From the IMG/VR virus record IMGVR_UViG_2778261203_000005, positions 1-8,229 of that record: DNA of 8,229 nt; one strand, 5' to 3'. Below, one piece after another: positions 1 to 8,229 of the stretch (within the stretch, counting starts at the first letter, position 1; each line of letters begins with the position of its first letter). The DNA comes from a virus (Duplodnaviria > Heunggongvirae > Uroviricota > Caudoviricetes). The notes under the pieces were generated by a model. That model had not been told where the DNA came from, did not search any database, and saw only the letters and a list, made by a program, of their open reading frames with translations. Made by a program: the position numbers and the translations under genes.

Positions 1-1005
1 TTAATCCCCCGTGGACACTGCGTGGACACTTACGCCACCTTTCAGCGGATTAAGGGCCACCGCATCCTGCAGGTAATCCGGTGCAAAATGCGCATATGCC
101 ATTGTTTGCTGAATGGTTGCGTGACCAAGAATCTTCTGAAGCGCAATAATGTTTCCTCCGTTCATCACAAAATGGCTGGCGAACGTATGCCGCAGCACAT
201 GTGCAGCCTGGCCTTTTGGTAAATCGGGCTTAACTCTTTTCAGCGCCAGGCAGAATTCCCGGTACTTCACCTCAAACAAGCCGCCTGTTTCTCTGGTTTT
301 GATCGCCTCACAAACTGCCTGCGAAATTGGCACTGTTCTCTTCCGGCCATTTTTGGTTTCAAGAAACGTTACACGGTTATGAACTATCTGTTCACCACGA
401 AGCTTACAAGCTTCACTCCAGCGCGCCCCTGTGCTTAAACACAAAAGCGCAACACGCCAGTAGTCGCCCTCCAGTGTATCGAGCAATAGCGCCACTTCCT
501 TCTGTGACAGGAACGCCATTTCTCGTGGAGATACATAAAGAATAGAAATTCCCCTTACTGGATGTTCTGCATCCCAAAGACCTATTTTTTTCAGCACGGT
601 AAACATTCCGGATAACCGATTCATGTACCTGTTAGCAGATGACGGTTTCAATCCTTCAGCTATCTTTTGAGAACGCCACGCGATAATTTTCAGCTTATCA
701 AGATCCACAGCCTGCATATCAGCGCCAAGCTCATTGATTATGTTGCGCAGTTGTTTTCGGTCTTCTTCCGCCTTACGCCTGTGCTGGCCGTGATACATCC
801 ACCACAACTCAAGCAAATCATTTAGCGTTCGACGATCACGGTAGCCCTGTATATATTCCCGCTTTTCAGCGTTCGCCATGATGTAGCGTTCAGTGGCCAC
901 CGCTACCGATTTTTTGTCAAATACCTTACGCACGCGCTTTCCCTTGCGTCCGTTCGGCCTGATGTCCAGCAAATAACGACCATCTTCGAGCTTCTTAATA
1001 GACAT
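1..1005 (-). CDS. int: Phage integrase, tyrosine recombinase (P2 Int-like), 334 aa
   Basis: The 339-aa ORF on the minus strand matches P2 integrase from memory (N-terminus SIKKLEDGRY..., C-terminal motifs HVLRHTFASHF and QQTMAYAHFAPDYLQDA..NPL). Catalytic tyrosine-recombinase residues are visible (ARWSEA, H-x-x-R, Y in TMAYAHF). The ORF track starts at a TTG at 1020; the ATG at 1005-1003 is preceded by GGAGGG with 7 nt spacing and gives the P2-like N-terminus, so I place the start there. The stop is at 3-1. Confidence 0.93.
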   Translation of the reverse strand: MSIKKLEDGRYLLDIRPNGRKGKRVRKVFDKKSVAVATERYIMANAEKREYIQGYRDRRTLNDLLELWWMYHGQHRRKAEEDRKQLRNIINELGADMQAVDLDKLKIIAWRSQKIAEGLKPSSANRYMNRLSGMFTVLKKIGLWDAEHPVRGISILYVSPREMAFLSQKEVALLLDTLEGDYWRVALLCLSTGARWSEACKLRGEQIVHNRVTFLETKNGRKRTVPISQAVCEAIKTRETGGLFEVKYREFCLALKRVKPDLPKGQAAHVLRHTFASHFVMNGGNIIALQKILGHATIQQTMAYAHFAPDYLQDAVALNPLKGGVSVHAVSTGD

Positions 1006-1101
1006 TACGAAGCCCTCCAATGAACCGCTCTACAATTTCTCCAGCTTCTTTCCAGCAATAATCAGACCAGACAAAAAGCAGGTCTAACCAGTTTTCTGGC
1101 C

Positions 1102-1422
1102 TCAGCGGGATAATTTTTGGATTGTTTCGGTTGAAACGCGATCTCCCTCCGAATTGCAGGAACCATCAAGAGAGAGAGCCGGAGAAATTTGCCCGACCTC
1201 CGGCATCGTTTCATCTGTTGATAACCAATAAGCATACTTCTTAAATTTAGGGTGTTTCGTAACCTTAAGTAAGGCACCCTCTGTTACTTGCTTCCCCCTC
1301 ACCTCATAGTTAGTTACCGTCCCATAAGGCAGCCCAACACAATCCGCAAACTCCTGGCGGGTCATACCTTCTGCTTCACGAATCAGGCGAAATTTTTCAC
1401 CCATGCTTGACAAAGATGCCAT
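1102..1422 (-). CDS. C: Immunity repressor, P2 C-type, 106 aa
   Basis: The translation MASLSSMGEKFRLIREAEGMTRQEFADCVGLPYGTVTNYE...HPKFKKYAYWLSTDE..PEVGQISPALS resembles P2 C repressor as I remember it (helix-turn-helix plus the QIAPAL-like C-terminus). It lies between int and a divergent cox, as in P2. The start is chosen at the ATG 1422-1420, 9 nt downstream of GGAGGA; the ORF-track start at 1476 would add an unlikely Cys-rich leader. Confidence 0.8.
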   Translation of the reverse strand: MASLSSMGEKFRLIREAEGMTRQEFADCVGLPYGTVTNYEVRGKQVTEGALLKVTKHPKFKKYAYWLSTDETMPEVGQISPALSLDGSCNSEGDRVSTETIQKLSR

Positions 1423-1461
1423 ATCGGGCATATCCTCCATCGAAACATGCCACATCGGGCA
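1407..1461 (+). promoter_or_regulatory. Candidate early promoter Pe (-35 TTGACA 1407-1412, -10 TATCCT 1431-1436) flanked by a 15-bp direct repeat (candidate C operators)
   Basis: A perfect TTGACA sits 18 nt upstream of TATCCT on the + strand, reading toward cox. ATGCCATATCGGGCA (1416-1430) and ATGCCACATCGGGCA (1447-1461) are 14/15 identical direct repeats 31 bp apart, bracketing the -10. P2 C repressor is known to bind direct repeats flanking the Pe -10. No experimental evidence is available here. Confidence 0.5.
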
Positions 1462-1480
1462 CAAACATAAAAACACTCAA

Positions 1481-1510
1481 ATAAGCCGATATAAGCCATT
1501 TTGAGCCATT
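1481..1510. promoter_or_regulatory. Three tandem imperfect 10-bp repeats (ATAAGCCGAT / ATAAGCCATT / TTGAGCCATT) just upstream of the cox RBS; candidate Cox-binding boxes over the Pc region
   Basis: The repeats are directly visible with helical (10 bp) periodicity, lying between the candidate Pe and the cox Shine-Dalgarno (AGGGAG 1521-1526). In P2, Cox represses Pc by binding several direct repeats. The Pc hexamers could not be placed confidently on the minus strand. Confidence 0.35.
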
Positions 1511-1535
1511 CGAACGAATTAGGGAGATTACCACA

Positions 1536-1823
1536 ATGAGCGAATCAGAGCTTGGGGGGTTCATTCAGGTAGCACCATATCCACTTGAAGCGGTGCCATA
1601 TCAACTATTCGCCAAGATGATCGGCCGCAAGGAATCCACAGTCAGAACCATGATTGACGCAGCAAAGCTACCGACAATTGACTTTGTGAAACCAGGTTCA
1701 GTAAAGACGCGTGCATCAGAAAACTGGGTATATCTGCCAGCATTTAACGAAGGCATGCGCAAAGCGTTTTTTGAGCAACCGAAAGAACGCCGCGACGCAT
1801 GGTTGTTGTGGCTGGGACTTTAG
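1536..1823 (+). CDS. cox: Cox-like excisionase / early-lytic regulator, 95 aa
   Basis: The translation ...VPYQLFAKMIGRKESTVRTMIDAAKLPTIDF....ENWVYLPAFNEGMRKAFFEQPKERRDAWLLWLGL aligns with P2 Cox from memory (IPYQEFAKLIG...VRRMID.GKLPVID...EYWVYLPAWN...PKEIRDGWLMWLGL). It has a good SD (AGGGAG, 9 nt spacing) and is divergent from C. Confidence 0.88.
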   Translation: MSESELGGFIQVAPYPLEAVPYQLFAKMIGRKESTVRTMIDAAKLPTIDFVKPGSVKTRASENWVYLPAFNEGMRKAFFEQPKERRDAWLLWLGL

Positions 1824-1829
1824 TCATAA

Positions 1830-2036
1830 ATGACCAGCCATATCATCAGCGCCATTCTGACCCTTGTTTTTATTGAGATAGGCGTAATAGCGATCTATTT
1901 GTTTCGCAAGTTAACGGGACATGAAGAACGCTTTATTGAACTCAGCATTGAATATATCGCCGCTTATACCAAAGGACTTTTCCCGGCAGCTATTGGGGCG
2001 ATGTTTATAGCGTTTGTTATCTGGTTTATCGGGTGA
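1830..2036 (+). CDS. Small hydrophobic protein, 68 aa, two predicted transmembrane helices; function unknown
   Basis: The ORF starts 7 nt after the cox stop. Two hydrophobic stretches are visible (IISAILTLVFIEIGVIAIYLF and LFPAAIGAMFIAFVIWFIG). There is no clear SD. Its position matches the small ORF that follows cox in P2-like phages. Confidence 0.45.
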   Translation: MTSHIISAILTLVFIEIGVIAIYLFRKLTGHEERFIELSIEYIAAYTKGLFPAAIGAMFIAFVIWFIG

Positions 2037-2063
2037 GAAACCTGACAACCCACAACTACTGCA

Positions 2064-2183
2064 ATGAGGGTAATTATGTGTGGCATGGACAAATTGGACC
2101 TTATGTTAATTGTAATACTATCAATTAACTTCGGTTACCTCTTAAGCGGCGCAATTCTCATGTGCGGAGGCAAACGAAAATGA
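2064..2183 (+). CDS. Possible 39-aa membrane peptide (MRVIMCGMDKLDLMLIVILSINFGYLLSGAILMCGGKRK)
   Basis: Found by manual translation; it is not in the ORF track because it is too short. It has a hydrophobic core and a basic C-terminus, and its stop overlaps the next ATG (ATGA). No SD is evident, so it is speculative. Confidence 0.2.
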   Translation: MRVIMCGMDKLDLMLIVILSINFGYLLSGAILMCGGKRK

Positions 2184-2287
2184 ACCAGCAGTCCGCAAAA
2201 CGTGAAAACAATGCGATGCGATTTAATCGCAAATATTTTGAGTTCGGCCTCTATGCCGGAATAATTAAATCTGTACAGAGTCTTTAA
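2180..2287 (+). CDS. Possible 35-aa basic peptide (MNQQSAKRENNAMRFNRKYFEFGLYAGIIKSVQSL)
   Basis: Found by manual translation. Its start overlaps the preceding stop (ATGA) and its stop lies 1 nt before the ATG at 2289. Speculative. Confidence 0.2.
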   Translation: MNQQSAKRENNAMRFNRKYFEFGLYAGIIKSVQSL

Positions 2288-2288
2288 C

Positions 2289-2630
2289 ATGAAACAGCAA
2301 CGTAATTCACGCTTTCGCAATGGTGCAGAACGCCACGCTAACCGTTTTGCTACCAGTGCATCACGCAGCAACATCCGCTACAGCCTGAGTGATACACACG
2401 CAACGCCGGATGGCTACCCAGTAAAACAAATCGGCGAGCATGCCTGGCTGATTGAGAAAGCTGGAATCGTGATCCACAAATGCCCACGCAATCCGTTTAC
2501 CGGAAACCGCATTTTTGCTCTAAGCAGTGGCGACAATCAGTTCGGGCAGGATTTCACATTATACGAAGCACTTCGCACGGTTGATCGTCTGCTTCGCGGG
2601 CAAAGTTTTATTAAACAGGCTGATTTATAA
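2289..2630 (+). CDS. Hypothetical early-operon protein, 113 aa, basic N-terminus
   Basis: A non-overlapping ORF in the same orientation as cox, tightly packed with its neighbours. I do not recognise a family; it may correspond to one of the small P2 early genes (B / orf80-83 region), but this is not verified. Confidence 0.5.
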   Translation: MKQQRNSRFRNGAERHANRFATSASRSNIRYSLSDTHATPDGYPVKQIGEHAWLIEKAGIVIHKCPRNPFTGNRIFALSSGDNQFGQDFTLYEALRTVDRLLRGQSFIKQADL

Positions 2631-2640
2631 CAGGTGCTTT

Positions 2641-2928
2641 ATGACCAAAGACCATGCACAAGGTGTATTTATCCGTTTTATTGATTTTCGCGGTGAACTG
2701 TTATTACGTGCATCCGCTATTGACGGAGTGACTCCGGCGGGTAAAAACGGAGCCGACGAAGCCACTTACGTTTATCTGAACGGCACGCGACTGCTTGTGG
2801 AACTTCCGTACCAGACCGTACGAGAAATCATTAGCGAAGCTGAAAAGGCACGCCAGGTTAATGGCGATGAACCCTATATCGAAATTATTTGTATGGATTC
2901 AGAAGCTGAAATACAGAAAGCAGATTAA
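2641..2928 (+). CDS. Hypothetical early-operon protein, 95 aa (MTKDHAQGVFIRFIDFRGELLLRA...)
   Basis: The ATG at 2641 starts 10 nt after the previous stop. The ORF-track start at 2527 would overlap the upstream gene by about 100 nt in another frame, so I prefer 2641. Family not recognised. Confidence 0.55.
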   Translation: MTKDHAQGVFIRFIDFRGELLLRASAIDGVTPAGKNGADEATYVYLNGTRLLVELPYQTVREIISEAEKARQVNGDEPYIEIICMDSEAEIQKAD

Positions 2929-2939
2929 AGGGCGTTGTG

Positions 2940-3182
2940 ATGGGCAAAGAATATAAAACTCTCATTAACAAAGCACTTGAGCGTTTTTATTTTCGCTTAA
3001 GTGCATCAGGCGCTCATGCTGAACGTGCGGCCCGTGACTCATTGACCAGAGCAATCCGAAGTCTGTATGACGTGGCTTTTTACGCTGATGATCTGGATGC
3101 ACTTAACGAACTTTCCGAGCTGATCTGTGCCGCAGAATGCGGGGAACATATTGAACCGTATAAGTTGGGGAATATCGCATGA
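2940..3182 (+). CDS. Hypothetical early-operon protein, 80 aa
   Basis: The ATG at 2940 is preceded by AAAGGG with 7 nt spacing. The predicted protein is acidic and helical-looking (…AFYADDLDALNELSELICAAECGEH…). Family not recognised. Confidence 0.55.
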   Translation: MGKEYKTLINKALERFYFRLSASGAHAERAARDSLTRAIRSLYDVAFYADDLDALNELSELICAAECGEHIEPYKLGNIA

Positions 3183-3293
3183 GTATATTTATCTCATGGC
3201 TTGTTCTGATTATTTCGGTGGCCTGCGCTATTGGGATTATGCGAATTATTCATTCAATAAAAAAGATTGAACGCTTTTTCACTGGCGAATAAC
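3179..3293 (+). CDS. Possible 37-aa single-pass membrane peptide (MSIFISWLVLIISVACAIGIMRIIHSIKKIERFFTGE)
   Basis: Found by manual translation. The ATG overlaps the upstream stop (ATGA). It has an N-terminal hydrophobic helix and a basic C-terminal tail, an architecture shared with small membrane toxins and holin-like peptides. Confidence 0.35.
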
Positions 3294-3378
3294 AGAGCAA
3301 ATAAAACCACAGATTAAATAAGAAAATGTAAAAACAATCCGCATTCGCGGAGGTATTCGCACACGCCAAGGAGGCGTA

Positions 3379-3582
3379 ATGGCAATTAAGCATTTTCCTG
3401 TCGTTCGTTTTACCTCCAGAGGGCGTGAATACGAAGTCGACGAACGCCTGATTACCACAATCGACAAACACCGTTCAGAAAAGGATGCACATCACATCTA
3501 TCTCACTGACGGCACTTACTTCTGCGCCACGAATGTGGTGCGGGTGAACCTTATCCGACAGGTACAGGAGTCACGCAGATGA
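3379..3582 (+). CDS. Hypothetical protein, 67 aa
   Basis: Strong SD (AAGGAGG 3368-3374) ahead of the ATG at 3379, preceded by an AT-rich, promoter-like 85-bp gap. The stop overlaps the next start (ATGA). Family not recognised; it has one Cys only, so it is not Ogr-like. Confidence 0.6.
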   Translation: MAIKHFPVVRFTSRGREYEVDERLITTIDKHRSEKDAHHIYLTDGTYFCATNVVRVNLIRQVQESRR

Positions 3583-3794
3583 CCATTCTGGACTATATCG
3601 CCGCCAACCCGAACGCAGGTGTGAAACGCGAGATTGCAACCCTTTCCCGCGCCCTGAAAAAAGCCGATTCCGCAGCCGAACCAGAAGACGCCAGCGCACA
3701 GCAGGCGCAGGACGAAAGCAGCAAAAGTAAAAAGACAACGCGGAAGCCTGCAACACGAAAAACCACCGCGACGCAGAAGGCGAAGCGCGGTTAA
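3579..3794 (+). CDS. Hypothetical protein, 71 aa, with Lys/Thr/Ala-rich basic low-complexity C-terminal tail
   Basis: Translationally coupled to the 67-aa ORF. The C-terminus (KSKKTTRKPATRKTTATQKAKRG) looks like a histone-like or nucleic-acid-binding tail. The GC content rises sharply from this ORF onward. Confidence 0.55.
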   Translation: MTILDYIAANPNAGVKREIATLSRALKKADSAAEPEDASAQQAQDESSKSKKTTRKPATRKTTATQKAKRG

Positions 3795-3811
3795 CGACTG
3801 ACCCCGTCAGC

Positions 3812-3882
3812 GGGCGGCGTGCGCGGTGTTCCGGTTTGACTCCGTGACCGTTTACACCGCGCACCCACCGCCCGATTTTTTT
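3812..3882 (+). terminator. Candidate rho-independent terminator: long GC-rich imperfect hairpin followed by a T7 run
   Basis: GTGCGCGGTGT (3819-3829) pairs perfectly with ACACCGCGCAC (3854-3864), extended by GGGCGG (3812-3817) with CCGCCC (3868-3873) across a small internal loop. The 24-nt loop has its own CGGT/ACCG pairing. The stem is followed by GA then TTTTTTT (3876-3882). The large loop is atypical, so it may instead be a regulatory structure. Confidence 0.45.
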
Positions 3883-3965
3883 CAGGAGTGAACCCCATGA
3901 GTATGGTTGCCAGAACTGAACCAGGACCCGCAGAGGACGACATCACCGATAAAGGAGAAGGACGA

Positions 3966-4358
3966 ATGAGCAACACATTTAAATTCAGCAGCCGAAGCGA
4001 AAATAATTTGCAGGGCGTAAATCCTGATCTGGTGAAAGTGACCCGACGGGCACTGGAAATCTCGGAAGTGGATTTTGGTATCACCGAAGGGTTGCGCAGC
4101 CGTTACCGCCAGAAGCAACTTGTGGCCACAGGTAAGAGCCAGACCATGAACAGCCGCCACCTTACGGGGCATGCCGTGGATGTTGTGGCTTATATCGGCA
4201 GCCAGGTGTCATGGGAATGGCCGCTGTACGAAAAAATCGCAGCAGCATTCAGACAGGCCAGCCGGGAACTGAATATTCCGGTGGAATGGGGCGGCGACTG
4301 GAAGACCCTGAAAGACGGACCGCATTTTCAGTTACCACACGGAGCCTATCCGGCATGA
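3966..4358 (+). CDS. Endolysin, peptidase M15 family (L-alanyl-D-glutamate peptidase, T5 Lys-like), 130 aa
   Basis: Zn-binding motifs of VanY/M15 peptidases are visible (SRHLTGHAVDVV and GGDW....GPHFQL). From the ATG at 3966 the protein aligns with phage T5 endolysin as I remember it (MS.FKF........VKPELQKVARRALEL..DF vs MSNTFKF...VNPDLVKVTRRALEISEVDF). SD AGGAGAAGG 4 nt upstream. An alternative upstream ATG at 3897 (SD CAGGAG) would add a 23-aa acidic extension. Confidence 0.9.
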   Translation: MSNTFKFSSRSENNLQGVNPDLVKVTRRALEISEVDFGITEGLRSRYRQKQLVATGKSQTMNSRHLTGHAVDVVAYIGSQVSWEWPLYEKIAAAFRQASRELNIPVEWGGDWKTLKDGPHFQLPHGAYPA

Positions 4359-4762
4359 AGCTCTGGCCCACGCTGGGTGTCGCTTTCCTTCTGATTGCCG
4401 GATGGGGAACATCCATGCGTCTGTCGTGGTCGCTGGGCCGGGAGAACGCCAGAAACGAAGCGCAGGCCAGCACCCTGAAAAGTACCGCCGACACCCTGAA
4501 TATCATCAGCGCCGGGGTACAGGATATGCAGCAGGTGCTGGCGCAACTCCGCGTGGAAAATCAGCAACGCAATCAGGACGGAGAGGTAAGACGTGAACAG
4601 CTACGCAACGATATTGCAAAAGATGAATGCGCCCACGCTTTGCCTGACGCTCGTTTTACTGACAGGCTGCGCAGGCACGCAGAACGCGCCACTGCCAGCG
4701 CCGTCAGTCCGGCTTATACCGCAGACGCTGACCATACCGGTAACGCCTCCCCCCTTCCCTGA
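4355..4762 (+). CDS. Rz-like inner-membrane spanin (i-spanin), 135 aa
   Basis: The ATG overlaps the endolysin stop (ATGA). It has an N-terminal transmembrane segment (LWPTLGVAFLLIAGWG) followed by a charged, coiled-coil-like periplasmic region (QDMQQVLAQLRVENQQRNQDGEVRREQLRNDIAKDE). Its position and architecture match P2 lysB and lambda Rz. Confidence 0.78.
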   Translation: MKLWPTLGVAFLLIAGWGTSMRLSWSLGRENARNEAQASTLKSTADTLNIISAGVQDMQQVLAQLRVENQQRNQDGEVRREQLRNDIAKDECAHALPDARFTDRLRRHAERATASAVSPAYTADADHTGNASPLP

Positions 4763-4913
4763 CACTCCCACATGGGGAAATCTCGGTATATGGGGCGACC
4801 GCCTTCTGGATGCACTGGAAACCTGTAACGCGGATAAACGGGCCATTGAATTACTGGAACAGCGCAGGCTGCAACGACTGAACAACGAGGATAACAACCA
4901 TGCTGAAAACTGA
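4623..4913 (+). CDS. Rz1-like outer-membrane lipoprotein spanin (o-spanin), 96 aa
   Basis: The start lies inside the Rz gene in a different frame. It has a signal peptide with lipobox LLTGC and a proline-rich mature region (PLPAPSVRLIPQTLTIPVTPPPFPDTP) typical of Rz1 and P2 lysC. It extends past the Rz stop and overlaps the start of R. Confidence 0.72.
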   Translation: MNAPTLCLTLVLLTGCAGTQNAPLPAPSVRLIPQTLTIPVTPPPFPDTPTWGNLGIWGDRLLDALETCNADKRAIELLEQRRLQRLNNEDNNHAEN

Positions 4914-5367
4914 TTCCCTGCGTGAAGCCATGACCCGTTCATGCCGATGGTGTCAGGCCAACCCGGAAAAATTCACCATTTTCGTGGAGAGCGGCAACAT
5001 TGAAACGACAGGAGAAACCCCATCGTTTGTTTACCGCTATCAGATGGTGATGTTTGTCATGGATTACGCCGGGGAGCTGGACGACCTCACGCTGCCGCTG
5101 CTGGCGTGGTTATCCGAAAATCAGCCACAGTTGTTGCTCAACCCTGAGCGTAATCAGGACATCAAATTCTCCGCCGTTATCAATGACGATGACAGCGCCG
5201 ATCTCCTGTTTACGCTCCCCCTGCGGGAACGCGTTCGCATCACGCGCAGCAGTCAGGGCACACCGCAGGCAGAACACCTGCCGGAGCCAAAACCCCGCCT
5301 GCCCTCTTCCGAAGGCGACTGGTCGCATGTATTCCAGGATGTGACGTGGGGTGAAAGCGATGGATAA
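4900..5367 (+). CDS. R: Tail completion protein R (P2 gpR-like), 155 aa
   Basis: The N-terminus MLKTDSLREAMT and internal LPLLAWLSENQPQLL match P2 gpR from memory (MLKPDSLRRAL..., VPVLAWLRENQPD). Same length as P2 gpR (155 aa). SD GAGGA 9 nt upstream. Confidence 0.88.
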   Translation: MLKTDSLREAMTRSCRWCQANPEKFTIFVESGNIETTGETPSFVYRYQMVMFVMDYAGELDDLTLPLLAWLSENQPQLLLNPERNQDIKFSAVINDDDSADLLFTLPLRERVRITRSSQGTPQAEHLPEPKPRLPSSEGDWSHVFQDVTWGESDG

Positions 5368-5995
5368 GGCATTCACCCGCGTGGATGAAACCTTTGAGGC
5401 CATCCGCGACAGCCTGAATCAGCAGGCCATCAATAACATCGCCAGAAAGCTGGCACAGGATTTACGCCGCGCCCAGCAGGCGCGTATCCGGTCACAGAAA
5501 GCGCCGGACGGGACCGCGTGGACACCACGCAGACGCCGCGTAACCCGGATACAGGAACGCATTCGCTTTATCTGGAATAACGAAGCACGCACGCTGAAAA
5601 ACTGGCATCACGACACGGGGAAATACGGGCGAACCATCACCGGGTGGGATGAGGATAAAAACAATATCCGTACGTTTTACCGGGATGACATCGACCGTTT
5701 TCTGGAAATACGCACCCGGCGCATCAACCAGGACAGCACAAAGCGCGTCCCCATGTTCGTAAAACTGCGCACCGCCCGCTACCTGAAAGCCCGTGCAGAT
5801 GCTTCCGGTGTGACGGTGGGTTACAGCGGCGTGGCCGCACGTATTGCACGCGTTCATCAGTTCGGTGAGCGCGATCAGGTTGCGCCGGGCATTTTCACCG
5901 ATTACCCGGTACGTGAGCTGCTGGGTATCAGCCAGGCAGATGAGCGCCTGATTTATAACACGGTGCTGGGCCGGATTGCGGAGGCTGTACGGTGA
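5360..5995 (+). CDS. S: Tail completion / virion morphogenesis protein S (P2 gpS-like), 211 aa
   Basis: The N-terminal region (IARKLAQDLRRAQQARIRSQKAPDGTAWTPRRRR) and C-terminal region (AARIARVHQFGERDQVA....TDYPVRELLGIS) match the gpS family from memory. The ATG at 5360 overlaps the R stop; the ORF-track start is a GTG at 5351. It is about 60 aa longer than I recall for P2 gpS. Confidence 0.85.
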   Translation: MDKAFTRVDETFEAIRDSLNQQAINNIARKLAQDLRRAQQARIRSQKAPDGTAWTPRRRRVTRIQERIRFIWNNEARTLKNWHHDTGKYGRTITGWDEDKNNIRTFYRDDIDRFLEIRTRRINQDSTKRVPMFVKLRTARYLKARADASGVTVGYSGVAARIARVHQFGERDQVAPGIFTDYPVRELLGISQADERLIYNTVLGRIAEAVR

Positions 5996-6573
5996 GCGCA
6001 GAACTCATGCGACTGCTGAGCAATATCATCCGTACCGGGATCATCTCTGAAGTTGATGAGAAGTCCTGGCGCGTGCGCGTTCGCAGCGGCGGACTGGAAA
6101 CAGGCTGGCTGCGCTGGAACACCACGCGCGCGGGAGCCTTCAATGTGTGGCTGCCGCCATCACCCGGCGAACAGGTGGTAATTGCCTGCATTGGCGGCAA
6201 CCCGGAAACCGCCATGATAATTGGCAGCCTGTGGAGTGATGCCAGTCCGGCCCCCGGCAAAAGCCTGAAAGAAATCGTGGTCAGCGCGCCGGACGGCGCG
6301 GTGTTCCGCTACGACGCGGACGCAGGCGCGCTGAGCGCCAGCGGCATGAAAACAGCCAGCCTGCAGGCATCCGTCAGCGTGACACTGGACGCGCCCGTCG
6401 TGGAATGCACAGACCTTCTGAGAACAGCGACGCTTGACGTCACAAAAGGGGGAAAGATGAGCGGCAATATCACGCACAGCGGCGGCGATTTCACCTCAAA
6501 CGGCATCACAGTGCATACGCATAAACACGGTGGCGTGAAAGGCGGCAGTGATTCGACAGGAGGCCCGCAGTGA
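5992..6573 (+). CDS. V: Baseplate assembly protein V (spike), P2 gpV-like, 193 aa
   Basis: Motifs IRTGIISEVD, GWLRW, GEQVVIACIGG, PDGAVFRYD, SGMKTAS, GNITHSGG.TSNGITVHTHKH match P2 gpV from memory. GTG start overlapping the S stop (GTGA), with GGAGG 6 nt upstream. Confidence 0.9.
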   Translation: MSAELMRLLSNIIRTGIISEVDEKSWRVRVRSGGLETGWLRWNTTRAGAFNVWLPPSPGEQVVIACIGGNPETAMIIGSLWSDASPAPGKSLKEIVVSAPDGAVFRYDADAGALSASGMKTASLQASVSVTLDAPVVECTDLLRTATLDVTKGGKMSGNITHSGGDFTSNGITVHTHKHGGVKGGSDSTGGPQ

Positions 6574-6920
6574 CAACCCGCTACACAGGAATGAATCCGG
6601 ACGGGACGGGAAACCTGAACGATACGGAGCACCTGAAACAGTCAGTCAGGGACATCCTGACCACCCCGCTGGCAAGCCGGGTTATGCGACGGGAATATGG
6701 CAGCCTTGTGCCTGATTTGATTGACGAACCCATGAATAACACCACGCGTCTGCAATGCATGAGTGCTGCCGTGATTGCACTGACGCGATGGGAACCCCGC
6801 ATTGCCCTGGACGCTATCGACGTTGTCTGGAAAGCGGGAGGCCGCGCCGGGGTGACGCTGTCGGGTACAGTCATGCAGACCATGCAGAATGTTGAATTAA
6901 CCATCACACTGAGGGAGTAA
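6570..6920 (+). CDS. W: Baseplate wedge protein W (GPW/gp25 family), 116 aa
   Basis: MTTRYTGMN...SRVMRREYGSL...WEPRIAL...VTLSGT matches P2 gpW from memory (MTARYLGMN...SRVMRRDYGSL...WEPRVTL). GTG start overlapping the V stop, with GGAGG 6 nt upstream. Confidence 0.9.
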   Translation: MTTRYTGMNPDGTGNLNDTEHLKQSVRDILTTPLASRVMRREYGSLVPDLIDEPMNNTTRLQCMSAAVIALTRWEPRIALDAIDVVWKAGGRAGVTLSGTVMQTMQNVELTITLRE

Positions 6921-6923
6921 ATC

Positions 6924-7820
6924 ATGCCTGCCGTTGACCTTTCCCAGTTACCAGAACCCGCCATCATCGCGGAGCCTGATTTTGAGGCAATTCTGGCTGA
7001 CACAAAGGCCATGATGATTGCAGCTTATCCCGCCGAACAGCGTGAAGTCGTTTCCGCCGCGCTGGAGCTGGAATCGGAACCCCTGAACGTTATCGCCCAG
7101 ACAACAGCGTTTCGTGAAATGCTGTTACGCCAGCGGGTCAATGAGGGTGCACGCGCCTGCATGTTAAGCCACAGCGCCGGAACAGACCTGGACAACCTCG
7201 CGGGCAATATGAACACAAAGCGCCTGGTTATCACTCCGGCAACGGATACCACCGACGCGGTGATGGAGAGCGACACCTCGCTGAGACTGCGGGCGCAGCG
7301 GGCGTACGACGGCCTGAGTGTTGCTGGCCCGTCAGGTGCATACGAGTATTTTGCCCGCAGCGCCAGCGGTCTGGTGCGTGATGCGCGGGCTATCAGTCCG
7401 TCTCCGGCAAATGTGACGGTTTCCATCCTGTCTACTGAAGGCGACGGCACAGCAACGGAGGCGTTGCTTAATACCGTTCGCGCCGTTCTGAATGCAGAGG
7501 ATACCCGCCCGGTGGCCGACCGCCTGACCGTACAGAGTGCCAGAATCGTGACATGGCGGCTGAATGCAAAACTGTACTTTTACCCCGGCCCGGAATCCGA
7601 ACCTATTCTGGCCGCGGCGGAATCGTCGTTCAGGAAGTGGCTGGCTGAGCAGGGGCTTATCGGTCAGGACGTGGCGTTGTCCGCCATTGCTGCCGCACTG
7701 CATGTACACGGTGTGCAACGCGTGGAGATAATCGAACCCACACAGAATATGGCCATCAGCGACATACAGGCGGCGCGCTGTGAGTCATTTACCATCAGCG
7801 AAGGTGGGCGCAATGAGTAA
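6924..7820 (+). CDS. J: Baseplate assembly protein J, P2 gpJ-like, 298 aa
   Basis: Extensive similarity to P2 gpJ from memory (LESEPL, RQRVNE.ARA.ML, AVMESDT..RLR.Q.A..GLSVAG..GAY.Y..RSA, RPVADRLTVQSA, YPGPESEPI.AAA, LSAI.AALHV.GVQRVE). SD GAGGGAG. Confidence 0.92.
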   Translation: MPAVDLSQLPEPAIIAEPDFEAILADTKAMMIAAYPAEQREVVSAALELESEPLNVIAQTTAFREMLLRQRVNEGARACMLSHSAGTDLDNLAGNMNTKRLVITPATDTTDAVMESDTSLRLRAQRAYDGLSVAGPSGAYEYFARSASGLVRDARAISPSPANVTVSILSTEGDGTATEALLNTVRAVLNAEDTRPVADRLTVQSARIVTWRLNAKLYFYPGPESEPILAAAESSFRKWLAEQGLIGQDVALSAIAAALHVHGVQRVEIIEPTQNMAISDIQAARCESFTISEGGRNE

Positions 7821-8229
7821 TTCACTGTTACCGCCATCAGCCAGCAGTTTCATGCGTTGTGCCGAAGCCGTCGGAACGCGCATTACAGACATTCCGGTAG
7901 ACCTCAACACGCTGTGGTCGCCGGACACATGCCCGGTGCATCTGCTGCCTTATCTCGCCTGGGCATTTTCCGTTGACCGCTGGGACCGCAACTGGCCGGA
8001 GGAAACAAAGCGCCAGGTGATTCGCGATGCGTGGCTGATACACCGACACAAGGGGACCATCAGCGCACTGCGAAGAGCCGTGGAGCCTCTCGGCTACCTG
8101 ATTGAAGTAAAGGAGTGGTGGCAACTCAACGAGGAGCCGGGAACATTTCGCATTGTTGTCGGAGTACTTGATCAGGGCATCCCCATAATGCCAATGGTGC
8201 GTGGATACGCTGGTCAGATGGTGCAATAG
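7813..8229 (+). CDS. I: Baseplate protein I, P2 gpI-like, 138 aa as read (ends exactly at window edge)
   Basis: The core LW.PDTCP..LLP.LAWAFSVDRWD..WPE.TKR.VIRDA..IH.HKGTI.A.RR.VEPLGYLI.V.EWW......PGTFR...GVL matches P2 gpI from memory. The ATG at 7813 overlaps the J stop (ATGAGTAA). The product is shorter than my recollection of P2 gpI (about 176 aa); the stop TAG sits at 8227-8229, the last bases of the window. Confidence 0.85.
   Translation: MSNSLLPPSASSFMRCAEAVGTRITDIPVDLNTLWSPDTCPVHLLPYLAWAFSVDRWDRNWPEETKRQVIRDAWLIHRHKGTISALRRAVEPLGYLIEVKEWWQLNEEPGTFRIVVGVLDQGIPIMPMVRGYAGQMVQ

What the first reader, a model, noticed from the sequence alone, without database searches (positions are those of the whole stretch)
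1830..4358. P2-like lysogeny module joined directly to lysis and tail genes, with replication and head modules absent
In P2 the prophage order is int-C-cox-B-A-(tin/old)-cos-Q-P-O-N-M-L-X-Y-K-lysABC-R-S-V-W-J-I. Here int, C and cox are followed by about 2 kb of small ORFs and then immediately by endolysin, spanins, R, S, V, W, J and I. No rolling-circle replicase (A), terminase, portal, scaffold, capsid or X/Y homolog is present in any frame. All retained genes look intact, with coupled starts and no frameshifts seen. This fits either a large-deletion cryptic prophage or a domesticated contractile-tail (tailocin-like) element that has kept its own C/cox switch and integrase. The second possibility would be notable.
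Basis: partly seen in the sequence, partly recalled or inferred. Interest (0 to 1): 0.65.

Follow-up and report, generated by a model that had tools for sequence, protein, structure and literature searches.

The report
Recently deleted, defective P88-like prophage
This is an ordinary broken prophage in one E. coli isolate: three recent deletions removed its replication, head, holin and key tail parts, so it is a decaying P2-family phage and not a domesticated tail weapon.

Summary
The window is part of an E. coli draft contig (GCA_002468085.1, NMNN01000016.1), with the element next to pdxB. It is a P88-like (Xuanwuvirus, Peduoviridae) prophage with three deletions relative to intact relatives that are 99.9-100% identical on the flanks.

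- J1 (3606-3611) removes about 12-13.5 kb, from codon 12 of a winged-helix gene to codon 204 of terminase-small gene M. It leaves an in-frame fusion ORF.
- J2 (3951/3952) removes 948 bp: most of L, all of tail gene X and the holin.
- J3 (about 8182-8185) removes about 1.3 kb: the C-terminus of I and the first 363 codons of fibre gene H.

So the claims "all retained genes intact" and "no terminase in any frame" are wrong. None of the junctions occurs in 5,426 complete E. coli genomes. The J1 sequence is absent from the metagenome and viral collections, and J2 from the viral collection. The retained late genes show no nucleotide difference from an intact prophage.

Verdict: a recent, strain-specific defective prophage. 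The tailocin reading is not supported. Interest is low.

The parts
1..1005 (-). Tyrosine integrase (334 aa), intact
   Evidence: Pfam Int_N and Phage_integrase. Gene call in the source contig. Lies in the 99.9% identical stretch shared with the intact CH4804 prophage.
1102..1422 (-). C-type immunity repressor (106 aa, HTH)
   Evidence: phrog_147 transcriptional regulator, 2.9e-29. 32% identical to the P88 C protein. The Pfam HTH_3 hit is below the curated cut-off.
1536..1823 (+). Cox (excisionase and early regulator)
   Evidence: Pfam Phage_Cox, 1.3e-22.
1830..3582 (+). Conserved early-operon small genes: 68-aa two-TM protein 1830-2036; two 35-aa ORFs 2076-2287; DUF4761 2289-2630; 95-aa 2641-2928; DUF4754 2940-3182; 37-aa 3179-3292; 67-aa 3379-3582
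   Evidence: Pfam DUF4761 and DUF4754. PHROGs 14475, 2492, 3800, 2549 and 3459, all of unknown function. Same genes in the same order in intact P88 and in the CH4804 prophage.
3606..3611 (.). Deletion junction J1, with 6-bp microhomology AACCCG. Removes 12.0-13.5 kb of the intact relatives: the early genes from the winged-helix gene through A replicase, ParM/partition, portal, large terminase, scaffold and capsid, plus the first 204 codons of M
   Evidence: blastn of the window against L001, L002 and L005, with junction alignment. No complete E. coli genome spans it. No exact match in metagenome or viral contigs.
3579..3794 (+). In-frame fusion ORF (71 aa): first 11 codons of the winged-helix gene (P88 gp09) joined to the last 62 codons of terminase small subunit gpM
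   Evidence: tblastn. phrog_5997 C-terminal end. The exact protein is recorded only from this contig and a Logan assembly.
3811..3883 (+). Strong hairpin plus U7 run between the M stop and the L start (terminator-like), inherited unchanged from the parent
   Evidence: RNA fold -50.6 kcal/mol, z = -5.05, 0 of 200 shuffles as good. 100% identical in L002.
3897..4358 (+). L'-endolysin fusion ORF (153 aa): 18 codons of head-completion gene L, 5 linker codons, then the complete M15 endolysin. The endolysin keeps its own Shine-Dalgarno sequence and its ATG at 3966. Junction J2 lies at 3951/3952 and removes 948 bp: the rest of L, tail gene X and the holin
   Evidence: Pfam Peptidase_M15_4. phrog_465 endolysin. 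No complete E. coli genome spans J2. No viral-contig match.
4355..4762 (+). i-spanin (Rz-like, 135 aa)
   Evidence: phrog_214 Rz-like spanin, 7e-42. 99.3% to the P88 protein.
4716..4913 (+). o-spanin LysC/Rz1-like (65 aa as called)
   Evidence: Pfam LysC, 1e-12. Gene call.
4900..5995 (+). Tail completion genes R (4900-5367) and S (5351-5995)
   Evidence: Pfam P2_Phage_GpR and Phage_tail_S. 100% identical to P88 R and S.
5992..7820 (+). Baseplate genes V (5992-6573), W (6570-6920) and J (6924-7820)
   Evidence: Pfam Phage_base_V, Phage_spike and Apex; GPW_gp25; Baseplate_J. 100% nucleotide identity to the F2_407_2_2 prophage.
7813..8229 (+). Truncated gpI (138-aa ORF: about 123 gpI residues plus a short out-of-frame tail read from H). 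Junction J3 lies at about 8182-8185, with 1-4 filler bases and no homology. It removes about 1.3 kb: the gpI C-terminus and H codons 1-363
   Evidence: Pfam Tail_P2_I covers profile positions 1-120 of 139. No complete E. coli genome spans J3. The contig ends 147 bp further on.

Best explanation
The window is the left part of a defective P88-like (Xuanwuvirus, P2 family) prophage. It is integrated next to pdxB in one E. coli isolate (GCA_002468085.1).

Three illegitimate-recombination deletions, with 0-6 bp of homology, occurred very recently in an otherwise normal prophage.
- J1 removed about 12-13.5 kb, covering replication, partition, packaging and head genes.
- J2 removed 948 bp: most of L, all of X and the holin.
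- J3 removed about 1.3 kb: the C-terminus of I and the N-terminal part of H.

What remains intact is the int/C/cox switch, the small early genes, the endolysin, both spanins, and R, S, V, W and J.

Inferred consequences:
- The element can still confer C-repressor immunity and may still excise.
- It cannot replicate, package DNA, build heads or make complete tails, because X is missing, I is truncated and H cannot attach.
- It cannot lyse the cell in a programmed way, because there is no holin to release a cytoplasmic M15 endolysin.

Loss of replication and holin functions is what would let a host survive derepression. That is a plausible but unproven reason why such a derivative persisted.
For: Source and setting. 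The window equals L003:6423-14651, next to pdxB, and the contig ends 147 bp after the window.

Flank identity:
- Left arm 1-3611 is 99.92% identical (3 mismatches) to an intact prophage at the same pdxB site in E. coli CH4804. There it continues into the winged-helix gene, A, ParM, Q, P, O, N, M, L, X, holin and endolysin.
- Right arm 3606-3951 and 3952-8181 is 100% identical to a prophage of E. coli F2_407_2_2, and 97-99% identical to inducible phage P88.

Breakpoints are mapped base by base.

Remnants of gp09, M, L and I, and the absence of A, Q, P, O, N, X, Y, H and G, come from tblastn and PHROGs.

The J1 and J2 fusion proteins are recorded from both the NCBI assembly and a separate Logan assembly contig.

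None of 5,426 complete E. coli genomes spans J1, J2 or J3. There is no J1 match in metagenome or viral contigs, and no J2 match in viral contigs.

X is listed as a P2 baseplate protein in PMC10719855 (Figure 2 legend, after Christie and Calendar 2016). P88 is an inducible, plaque-forming P2-like phage (PMC5285337).
Against: - The contig ends 147 bp after the window, so the state of the rest of the element (G, FI, FII, E, T, U, D, ogr, attR) is unknown.
- Three deletions with no accompanying point mutations is unusual for slow decay. It suggests either one complex event or strong selection, and I cannot tell which.
- J3 lies about 190 bp from a contig end and its fusion protein is recorded from the NCBI assembly only, so J3 is less secure than J1 and J2.
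- No expression or phenotype data exist.
Confidence: 0.86

Rival explanations
1. Domesticated contractile-tail (R-type tailocin-like) element. It has shed head and replication genes but keeps its own C/cox switch, lysis genes and tail genes, and makes headless killing particles.
For: Head, packaging and replication genes are absent, while endolysin, spanins, R, S, V, W and J are intact. P2-derived tailocins do exist in Enterobacterales, for example dickeyocin P2D1 (PMC10719855).
Against: - Baseplate gene X and the holin are deleted (J2).
- gpI lacks its C-terminal third, and H lacks the first 363 codons that would anchor the fibre (J3).
- Dead remnants of M and L are still present.
- There is 100% nucleotide identity to an intact prophage over 4.2 kb, so there is no evolutionary history as a separate element.
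- The architecture is seen in a single isolate only.
Confidence: 0.03
2. Assembly artefact. The contig is a chimeric or collapsed join of reads from one or more intact P88-like prophages in the same genome, and the deletions do not exist in the cell.
For: - Draft short-contig assembly.
- All three junctions are singletons.
- The left and right arms best match prophages at different chromosomal sites.
- J3 is about 190 bp from the contig end and is recorded only in the NCBI assembly.
Against: - The J1 and J2 fusion proteins are also recorded from a second, separately assembled contig (Logan, 10-20 kb block), together on one contig.
- Homology at the joins is only 0-6 bp, far below any assembler k-mer, so a repeat-induced misjoin is not expected.
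- There are no Ns or scaffolding gaps.
- The junction sequences themselves must exist in reads.
Confidence: 0.08
3. Helper-dependent satellite-like element. It keeps its switch and some late genes and relies on a co-resident intact P88-like phage for replication, heads and packaging.
For: The int/C/cox module is intact. P88-like prophages are common in E. coli and often present in more than one copy per genome.
Against: - The whole interval between the early genes and M is gone. In P2-type genomes this interval holds the packaging (cos) region next to the portal gene, by my own knowledge of P2.
- There are no satellite-specific genes.
- The junctions are random illegitimate joins that leave gene fragments.
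- It is a singleton.
Confidence: 0.02

Closest known systems
Escherichia phage P88 and related prophages (Xuanwuvirus, Peduoviridae; P2-like)
   Same: - Same gene order, with 87-100% nucleotide identity for every retained segment except the immunity module. This covers the DUF4761 to 67-aa early genes, the 3' end of M, the 5' end of L, the endolysin, the spanins, and R, S, V, W, J and I.
- An intact prophage with the same int/C/cox (99.9%) sits at the same pdxB site in E. coli CH4804.
   Different: - Lacks about 14.8-16 kb in three blocks: replication, partition, packaging and head genes; L, X and holin; the I C-terminus and the H N-terminus.
- The int/C/cox module differs from that of P88 itself (integrase 44% and C 32% amino-acid identity). 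It is therefore a different immunity and integration type within the group.
P2-derived R-type tailocins (R-pyocins of Pseudomonas aeruginosa, dickeyocin P2D1 of Dickeya dadantii, xenorhabdicin)
   Same: P2-type baseplate and tail-completion genes and a lysis cassette, without head or replication genes (PMC10719855).
   Different: - Tailocin loci encode a complete tail and a working lysis system, and are conserved within a species.
- Here X, the holin, the end of I and the start of H are deleted.
- Head and terminase gene stubs remain.
- The arrangement is unique to one isolate.
Defective or cryptic prophages of E. coli (for example the defective prophage pool of O157 Sakai, PMC2669165)
   Same: An integrated phage genome inactivated by internal deletions, with the integration and immunity functions retained.
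   Different: This one is extremely young: 0 substitutions in 4.5 kb against an intact relative. It has three separate illegitimate joins within 4.6 kb.

Membership tests
P2-family (Peduoviridae, P88-like/Xuanwuvirus) prophage | P2-type lysogeny switch: integrase, C repressor and divergent cox | tested here: met
   Pfam Phage_integrase, Int_N and Phage_Cox. phrog_147 regulator.
P2-family (Peduoviridae, P88-like/Xuanwuvirus) prophage | Collinear nucleotide homology to sequenced members of the genus | tested here: met
   97-99% to P88 over 3606-8103 and 91.8% over 2310-3611. 100% to the F2_407_2_2 prophage and 99.9% to the CH4804 prophage.
P2-family (Peduoviridae, P88-like/Xuanwuvirus) prophage | Complete complement for a viable phage: A replicase, Q, P, O, N, M, L, X, holin, and full I and H | tested here: not met
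   tblastn of all P88 proteins gives no hit, or only stubs, for these genes. Deletions are mapped. The element is therefore a defective member, not a viable phage.
R-type tailocin (phage-tail-like bacteriocin) | Absence of head, packaging and replication genes | tested here: met
   Stubs of M and L remain, however.
R-type tailocin (phage-tail-like bacteriocin) | Complete, intact set of tail genes, including baseplate X, I and fibre H | tested here: not met
   X is absent, I is truncated at about residue 123, and H lacks codons 1-363. Sheath, tube, tape measure, U and D lie beyond the contig end and could not be examined.
R-type tailocin (phage-tail-like bacteriocin) | Functional release system: holin plus endolysin, with or without spanins | tested here: not met
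   The holin gene is deleted by J2. The endolysin and spanins are present. No other late-region membrane protein was found.
R-type tailocin (phage-tail-like bacteriocin) | Conservation of the headless architecture across strains, as a signature of domestication | tested here: not met
   0 of 5,426 complete E. coli genomes span J1, J2 or J3. The fusion proteins are seen only in this isolate's assemblies. There are no matches for J1 in metagenome or viral contigs, or for J2 in viral contigs.
R-type tailocin (phage-tail-like bacteriocin) | Production of headless particles with killing activity | not testable with these tools
   Requires induction, EM and spot assays.

The most novel reading that the evidence does not exclude
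The three deletions are real and were selected together. The element would then be an early snapshot of prophage taming. The host has kept the immunity switch and an endolysin/spanin/baseplate block that is now transcriptionally fused to the early operon. The missing X, I, H and holin functions would be supplied in trans by a co-resident P88-like prophage. This locus would then contribute to, or interfere with, tail or tailocin production by that helper.
Probability: 0.04. Interest if true: 0.5.

Novelty: new member of a known kind. Interest (0 to 1): 0.1.

Why it matters
It matters little beyond annotation. It is a clear, base-resolved example of how a P2-family prophage is disabled by a few illegitimate deletions. 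It also shows that a 'tail genes without head genes' layout should not be called a tailocin until X, I, H and the holin have been checked and the layout is shown to be conserved. If the three deletions arose in one event or under selection for survival of induction, the isolate could be a small case study in the first steps of prophage decay.

Tried and rejected
- Tailocin reading: rejected on gene content and lack of conservation.
- Search for the junctions elsewhere: J1 in metagenome contigs and viral contigs, and J2 in viral contigs, gave no matches. The complete E. coli genomes gave none either.
- Attempt to see beyond the contig end, or to view the second (Logan) contig, through the fusion proteins. 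The tool showed only the NCBI contig and hid the other as a 'similar place'. The downstream tail genes, ogr and attR therefore remain unseen.
- Placing late promoters with the P2 Ogr dyad TGT-N12-ACA. Match counts are at chance level in the window (2 against 2.0 expected) and in the intact relative. There is none in the divergent P/O region of L005. The motif is uninformative here, so I draw no conclusion on which promoter drives the remaining late genes.
- Simple terminator and promoter scan: no enrichment over shuffles. It missed the M-L hairpin, which was found by folding.
- Rfam scan of the window: nothing at E <= 0.1.
- tRNA scan: none.
- Engineered deletion: considered and rejected. There are no scars or cassettes, and the breakpoints fall inside codons at arbitrary positions.
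Full report
**What is in the window.**
ORF listing and profile searches give the following genes.

| Feature | Coordinates | Strand |
|---|---|---|
| Tyrosine integrase | 1-1005 | - |
| HTH repressor of the P2 C type | 1102-1422 | - |
| Cox | 1536-1823 | + |
| 68-aa two-TM protein | 1830-2036 | + |
| Two 35-aa ORFs | 2076-2287 | + |
| DUF4761 | 2289-2630 | + |
| 95-aa protein | 2641-2928 | + |
| DUF4754 | 2940-3182 | + |
| 37-aa ORF | 3179-3292 | + |
| 67-aa protein | 3379-3582 | + |
| 71-aa ORF | 3579-3794 | + |
| M15 endolysin ORF | 3897-4358 | + |
| i-spanin | 4355-4762 | + |
| o-spanin (LysC) | 4716-4913 | + |
| R | 4900-5367 | + |
| S | 5351-5995 | + |
| V | 5992-6573 | + |
| W | 6570-6920 | + |
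| J | 6924-7820 | + |
| Tail_P2_I ORF | 7813-8229 | + |

There are no tRNAs and no Rfam families.

**Where it comes from.**
Exact look-up of the 71-aa protein places the window on contig NMNN01000016.1 of assembly GCA_002468085.1 (101,535 bp). The window equals L003:6423-14651. The flanking genes are dedD-folC-accD-dedA-truA-usg-pdxB, so the host is E. coli-like and the element is integrated next to pdxB. The contig ends only 147 bp after the window. Nothing downstream of gene I can be inspected.

**Comparison with intact relatives.**
Megablast against phage records shows 97-99% identity of 3606-8103 to Escherichia phage P88 and other Xuanwuvirus (Peduoviridae) genomes, always in two pieces. 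P88 is an inducible, plaque-forming P2-like phage (PMC5285337).

Against 5,426 complete E. coli genomes:
- Window 1-3611 matches 277 genomes over at least 80% of the query (window 1-3700). The best is CH4804 at 99.92%. That prophage is also next to pdxB and is essentially complete: int, C, cox, the same small early genes, a MarR/winged-helix gene, A replication endonuclease, ParM, portal, terminase, scaffold, capsid, M, L, X, holin, endolysin, spanins, R, S, V, W, J, I and H. Two of its genes are annotated as frameshifted.
- Window 3606-3951 and 3952-8181 are each 100% identical to a prophage of E. coli F2_407_2_2.

**The three junctions.**

J1 lies at 3606-3611, the 6-bp overlap AACCCG between the two alignments.
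- The left side is codon 11 of the winged-helix gene (P88 gp09). The right side is codon 205 of terminase small-subunit gene M.
- The interval lost is 12.0 kb in F2_407_2_2 coordinates, 12.3 kb in CH4804 and 13.5 kb in P88.
- It holds the remaining early genes, A, ParM/partition, portal Q, terminase P, scaffold O, capsid N and most of M.
- The join is in frame. It creates the 71-aa ORF 3579-3794, whose residues 9-70 match the C-terminal end of phrog_5997, terminase small subunit.

J2 lies at 3951/3952, with 0-1 bp of homology.
- Codon 18/19 of head-completion gene L is joined to a point 14 bp upstream of the endolysin ATG (3966).
- This removes 948 bp: the rest of L, all of tail gene X and the whole holin gene.
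- The endolysin keeps its own AGGAG and start codon. The upstream L stub is in frame, giving the 153-aa ORF.

J3 lies at about 8182-8185, with 1-4 unmatched bases and no homology.
- gpI is cut after about residue 123 of 202 and joined, out of frame, to codon 363 of fibre gene H. The ORF stops after about 14 more codons, at 8229.
- About 1.3 kb is lost.
- The remaining 3' part of H continues at 100% identity to the contig end.

- 'No terminase ... in any frame' is wrong, because stubs of M and L are present.
- 'All retained genes look intact' is wrong, because I is truncated and H has lost its N-terminal part.
- The small ORFs between cox and the endolysin are the ordinary early-operon genes of this phage group. 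None matches a replication protein family.
- The absence of A, Q, P, O, N, X and Y is correct.

**Is it a tailocin?**
I tested the defining features.
- Head, packaging and replication genes are absent: met.
- A complete tail gene set: not met. X, a P2 baseplate protein (PMC10719855, Figure 2 legend), is gone. I is truncated. H cannot have its baseplate-proximal part.
- A functional release system: not met. There is no holin, and the M15 endolysin has no evident export signal. That last point is my own reading of the sequence and was not tested.
- Conservation across strains: not met. No complete E. coli genome spans J1, J2 or J3. The fusion proteins are recorded only from this isolate's assemblies. 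The J1 sequence is absent from the metagenome and viral collections, and J2 from the viral collection.
- The retained late genes show no nucleotide difference from an intact prophage over 4,576 bp. The element therefore has no history of independent evolution.

**Are the deletions real?**
- The J1 and J2 fusion proteins occur in two assemblies: the NCBI contig and a separate 10-20 kb contig attributed to Logan.
- Homology at the joins is at most 6 bp, too short to cause a k-mer graph misjoin.
- J3 is weaker. It is about 190 bp from the contig end and is recorded only from the NCBI assembly. A k=31 assembly would be expected to break in the repeated H segment anyway; that is an inference.
- I put an assembly artefact at about 8%.

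**Most likely mechanism.**
Shown:
- A P88-like prophage at pdxB suffered three illegitimate deletions.
- It retains an intact int/C/cox module, early genes, endolysin, spanins, and R, S, V, W and J.

Inferred:
- It still provides repressor-mediated immunity and may excise.
- It cannot replicate, package, form heads or complete tails, or lyse in a programmed way.
- After J1 the lysis and tail genes lie downstream of the early operon. A strong hairpin plus U7 run at 3811-3883 (-50.6 kcal/mol, z = -5.05), inherited from the parent, stands between them.
- I could not place late promoters. The P2 Ogr dyad motif is at chance level here and in the intact relative.
- Loss of the replicase and the holin are the changes that would spare a host from killing on derepression, so selection for survivors is a plausible origin. 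A single complex template-switching event is an alternative. Neither can be tested here.

**Novelty and score.**
This is a defective member of a well-known phage group and a well-known process, prophage decay by deletion (compare PMC2669165). It is undocumented as an individual element but not new in kind. Interest is 0.1.

The most novel reading not excluded is a young 'tamed' locus working together with a co-resident intact P88-like prophage. I put this at about 4%.

Noticed in passing
window 3811-3883: Very stable hairpin followed by a U7 run between the stop of terminase-small gene M and the start of L (-50.6 kcal/mol, z = -5.05). It is identical in intact relatives, is not in Rfam, and was missed by the simple terminator scan because of its long loop. 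It may be an internal terminator or attenuator inside the late operon of P88-like phages.
   Followed up: partly
window 5610-5880; GenBank MT713136.1 242157-242427: The 254-kb Aeromonas phage AP1 record holds 271 bp that are 98.5% identical to the E. coli prophage gene S, with nothing annotated there. It looks like foreign or contaminant DNA in that record.
   Followed up: no
L002 36597-38512 and 28236-28940: The 100%-identical relative in E. coli F2_407_2_2 carries a TIR-domain gene and a SIR2-family gene between the gpD-like gene and ogr. These are probably anti-phage defence cargo at the usual P2 hotspot. It also has an IS26 inserted in its tail-fibre region.
   Followed up: no
window 1-3611 versus 3606-8181: The element is mosaic. 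The left arm is 99.9% identical to the pdxB-site prophage of CH4804, whose late genes are only about 97% identical to the window. The right arm is 100% identical to a prophage at the yecA/tRNA-Leu site of F2_407_2_2, whose early genes are only about 88% identical. This implies recent recombination between co-circulating P88-like prophages.
   Followed up: partly
window 1830-2036 and 2076-2287: Directly after cox there is a 68-aa protein with two hydrophobic segments (phrog_14475, unknown function) and two tandem 35-aa ORFs. They are present in the CH4804-type prophage but not in P88. They could be a small membrane-acting exclusion or toxin module.
   Followed up: no
window 3400-3800: GC content steps from about 0.43-0.48 in the lysogeny and early region to 0.55-0.63 in the late region, right at junction J1. 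The step reflects the normal early/late compositional difference of this phage group, brought together by the deletion.
   Followed up: partly
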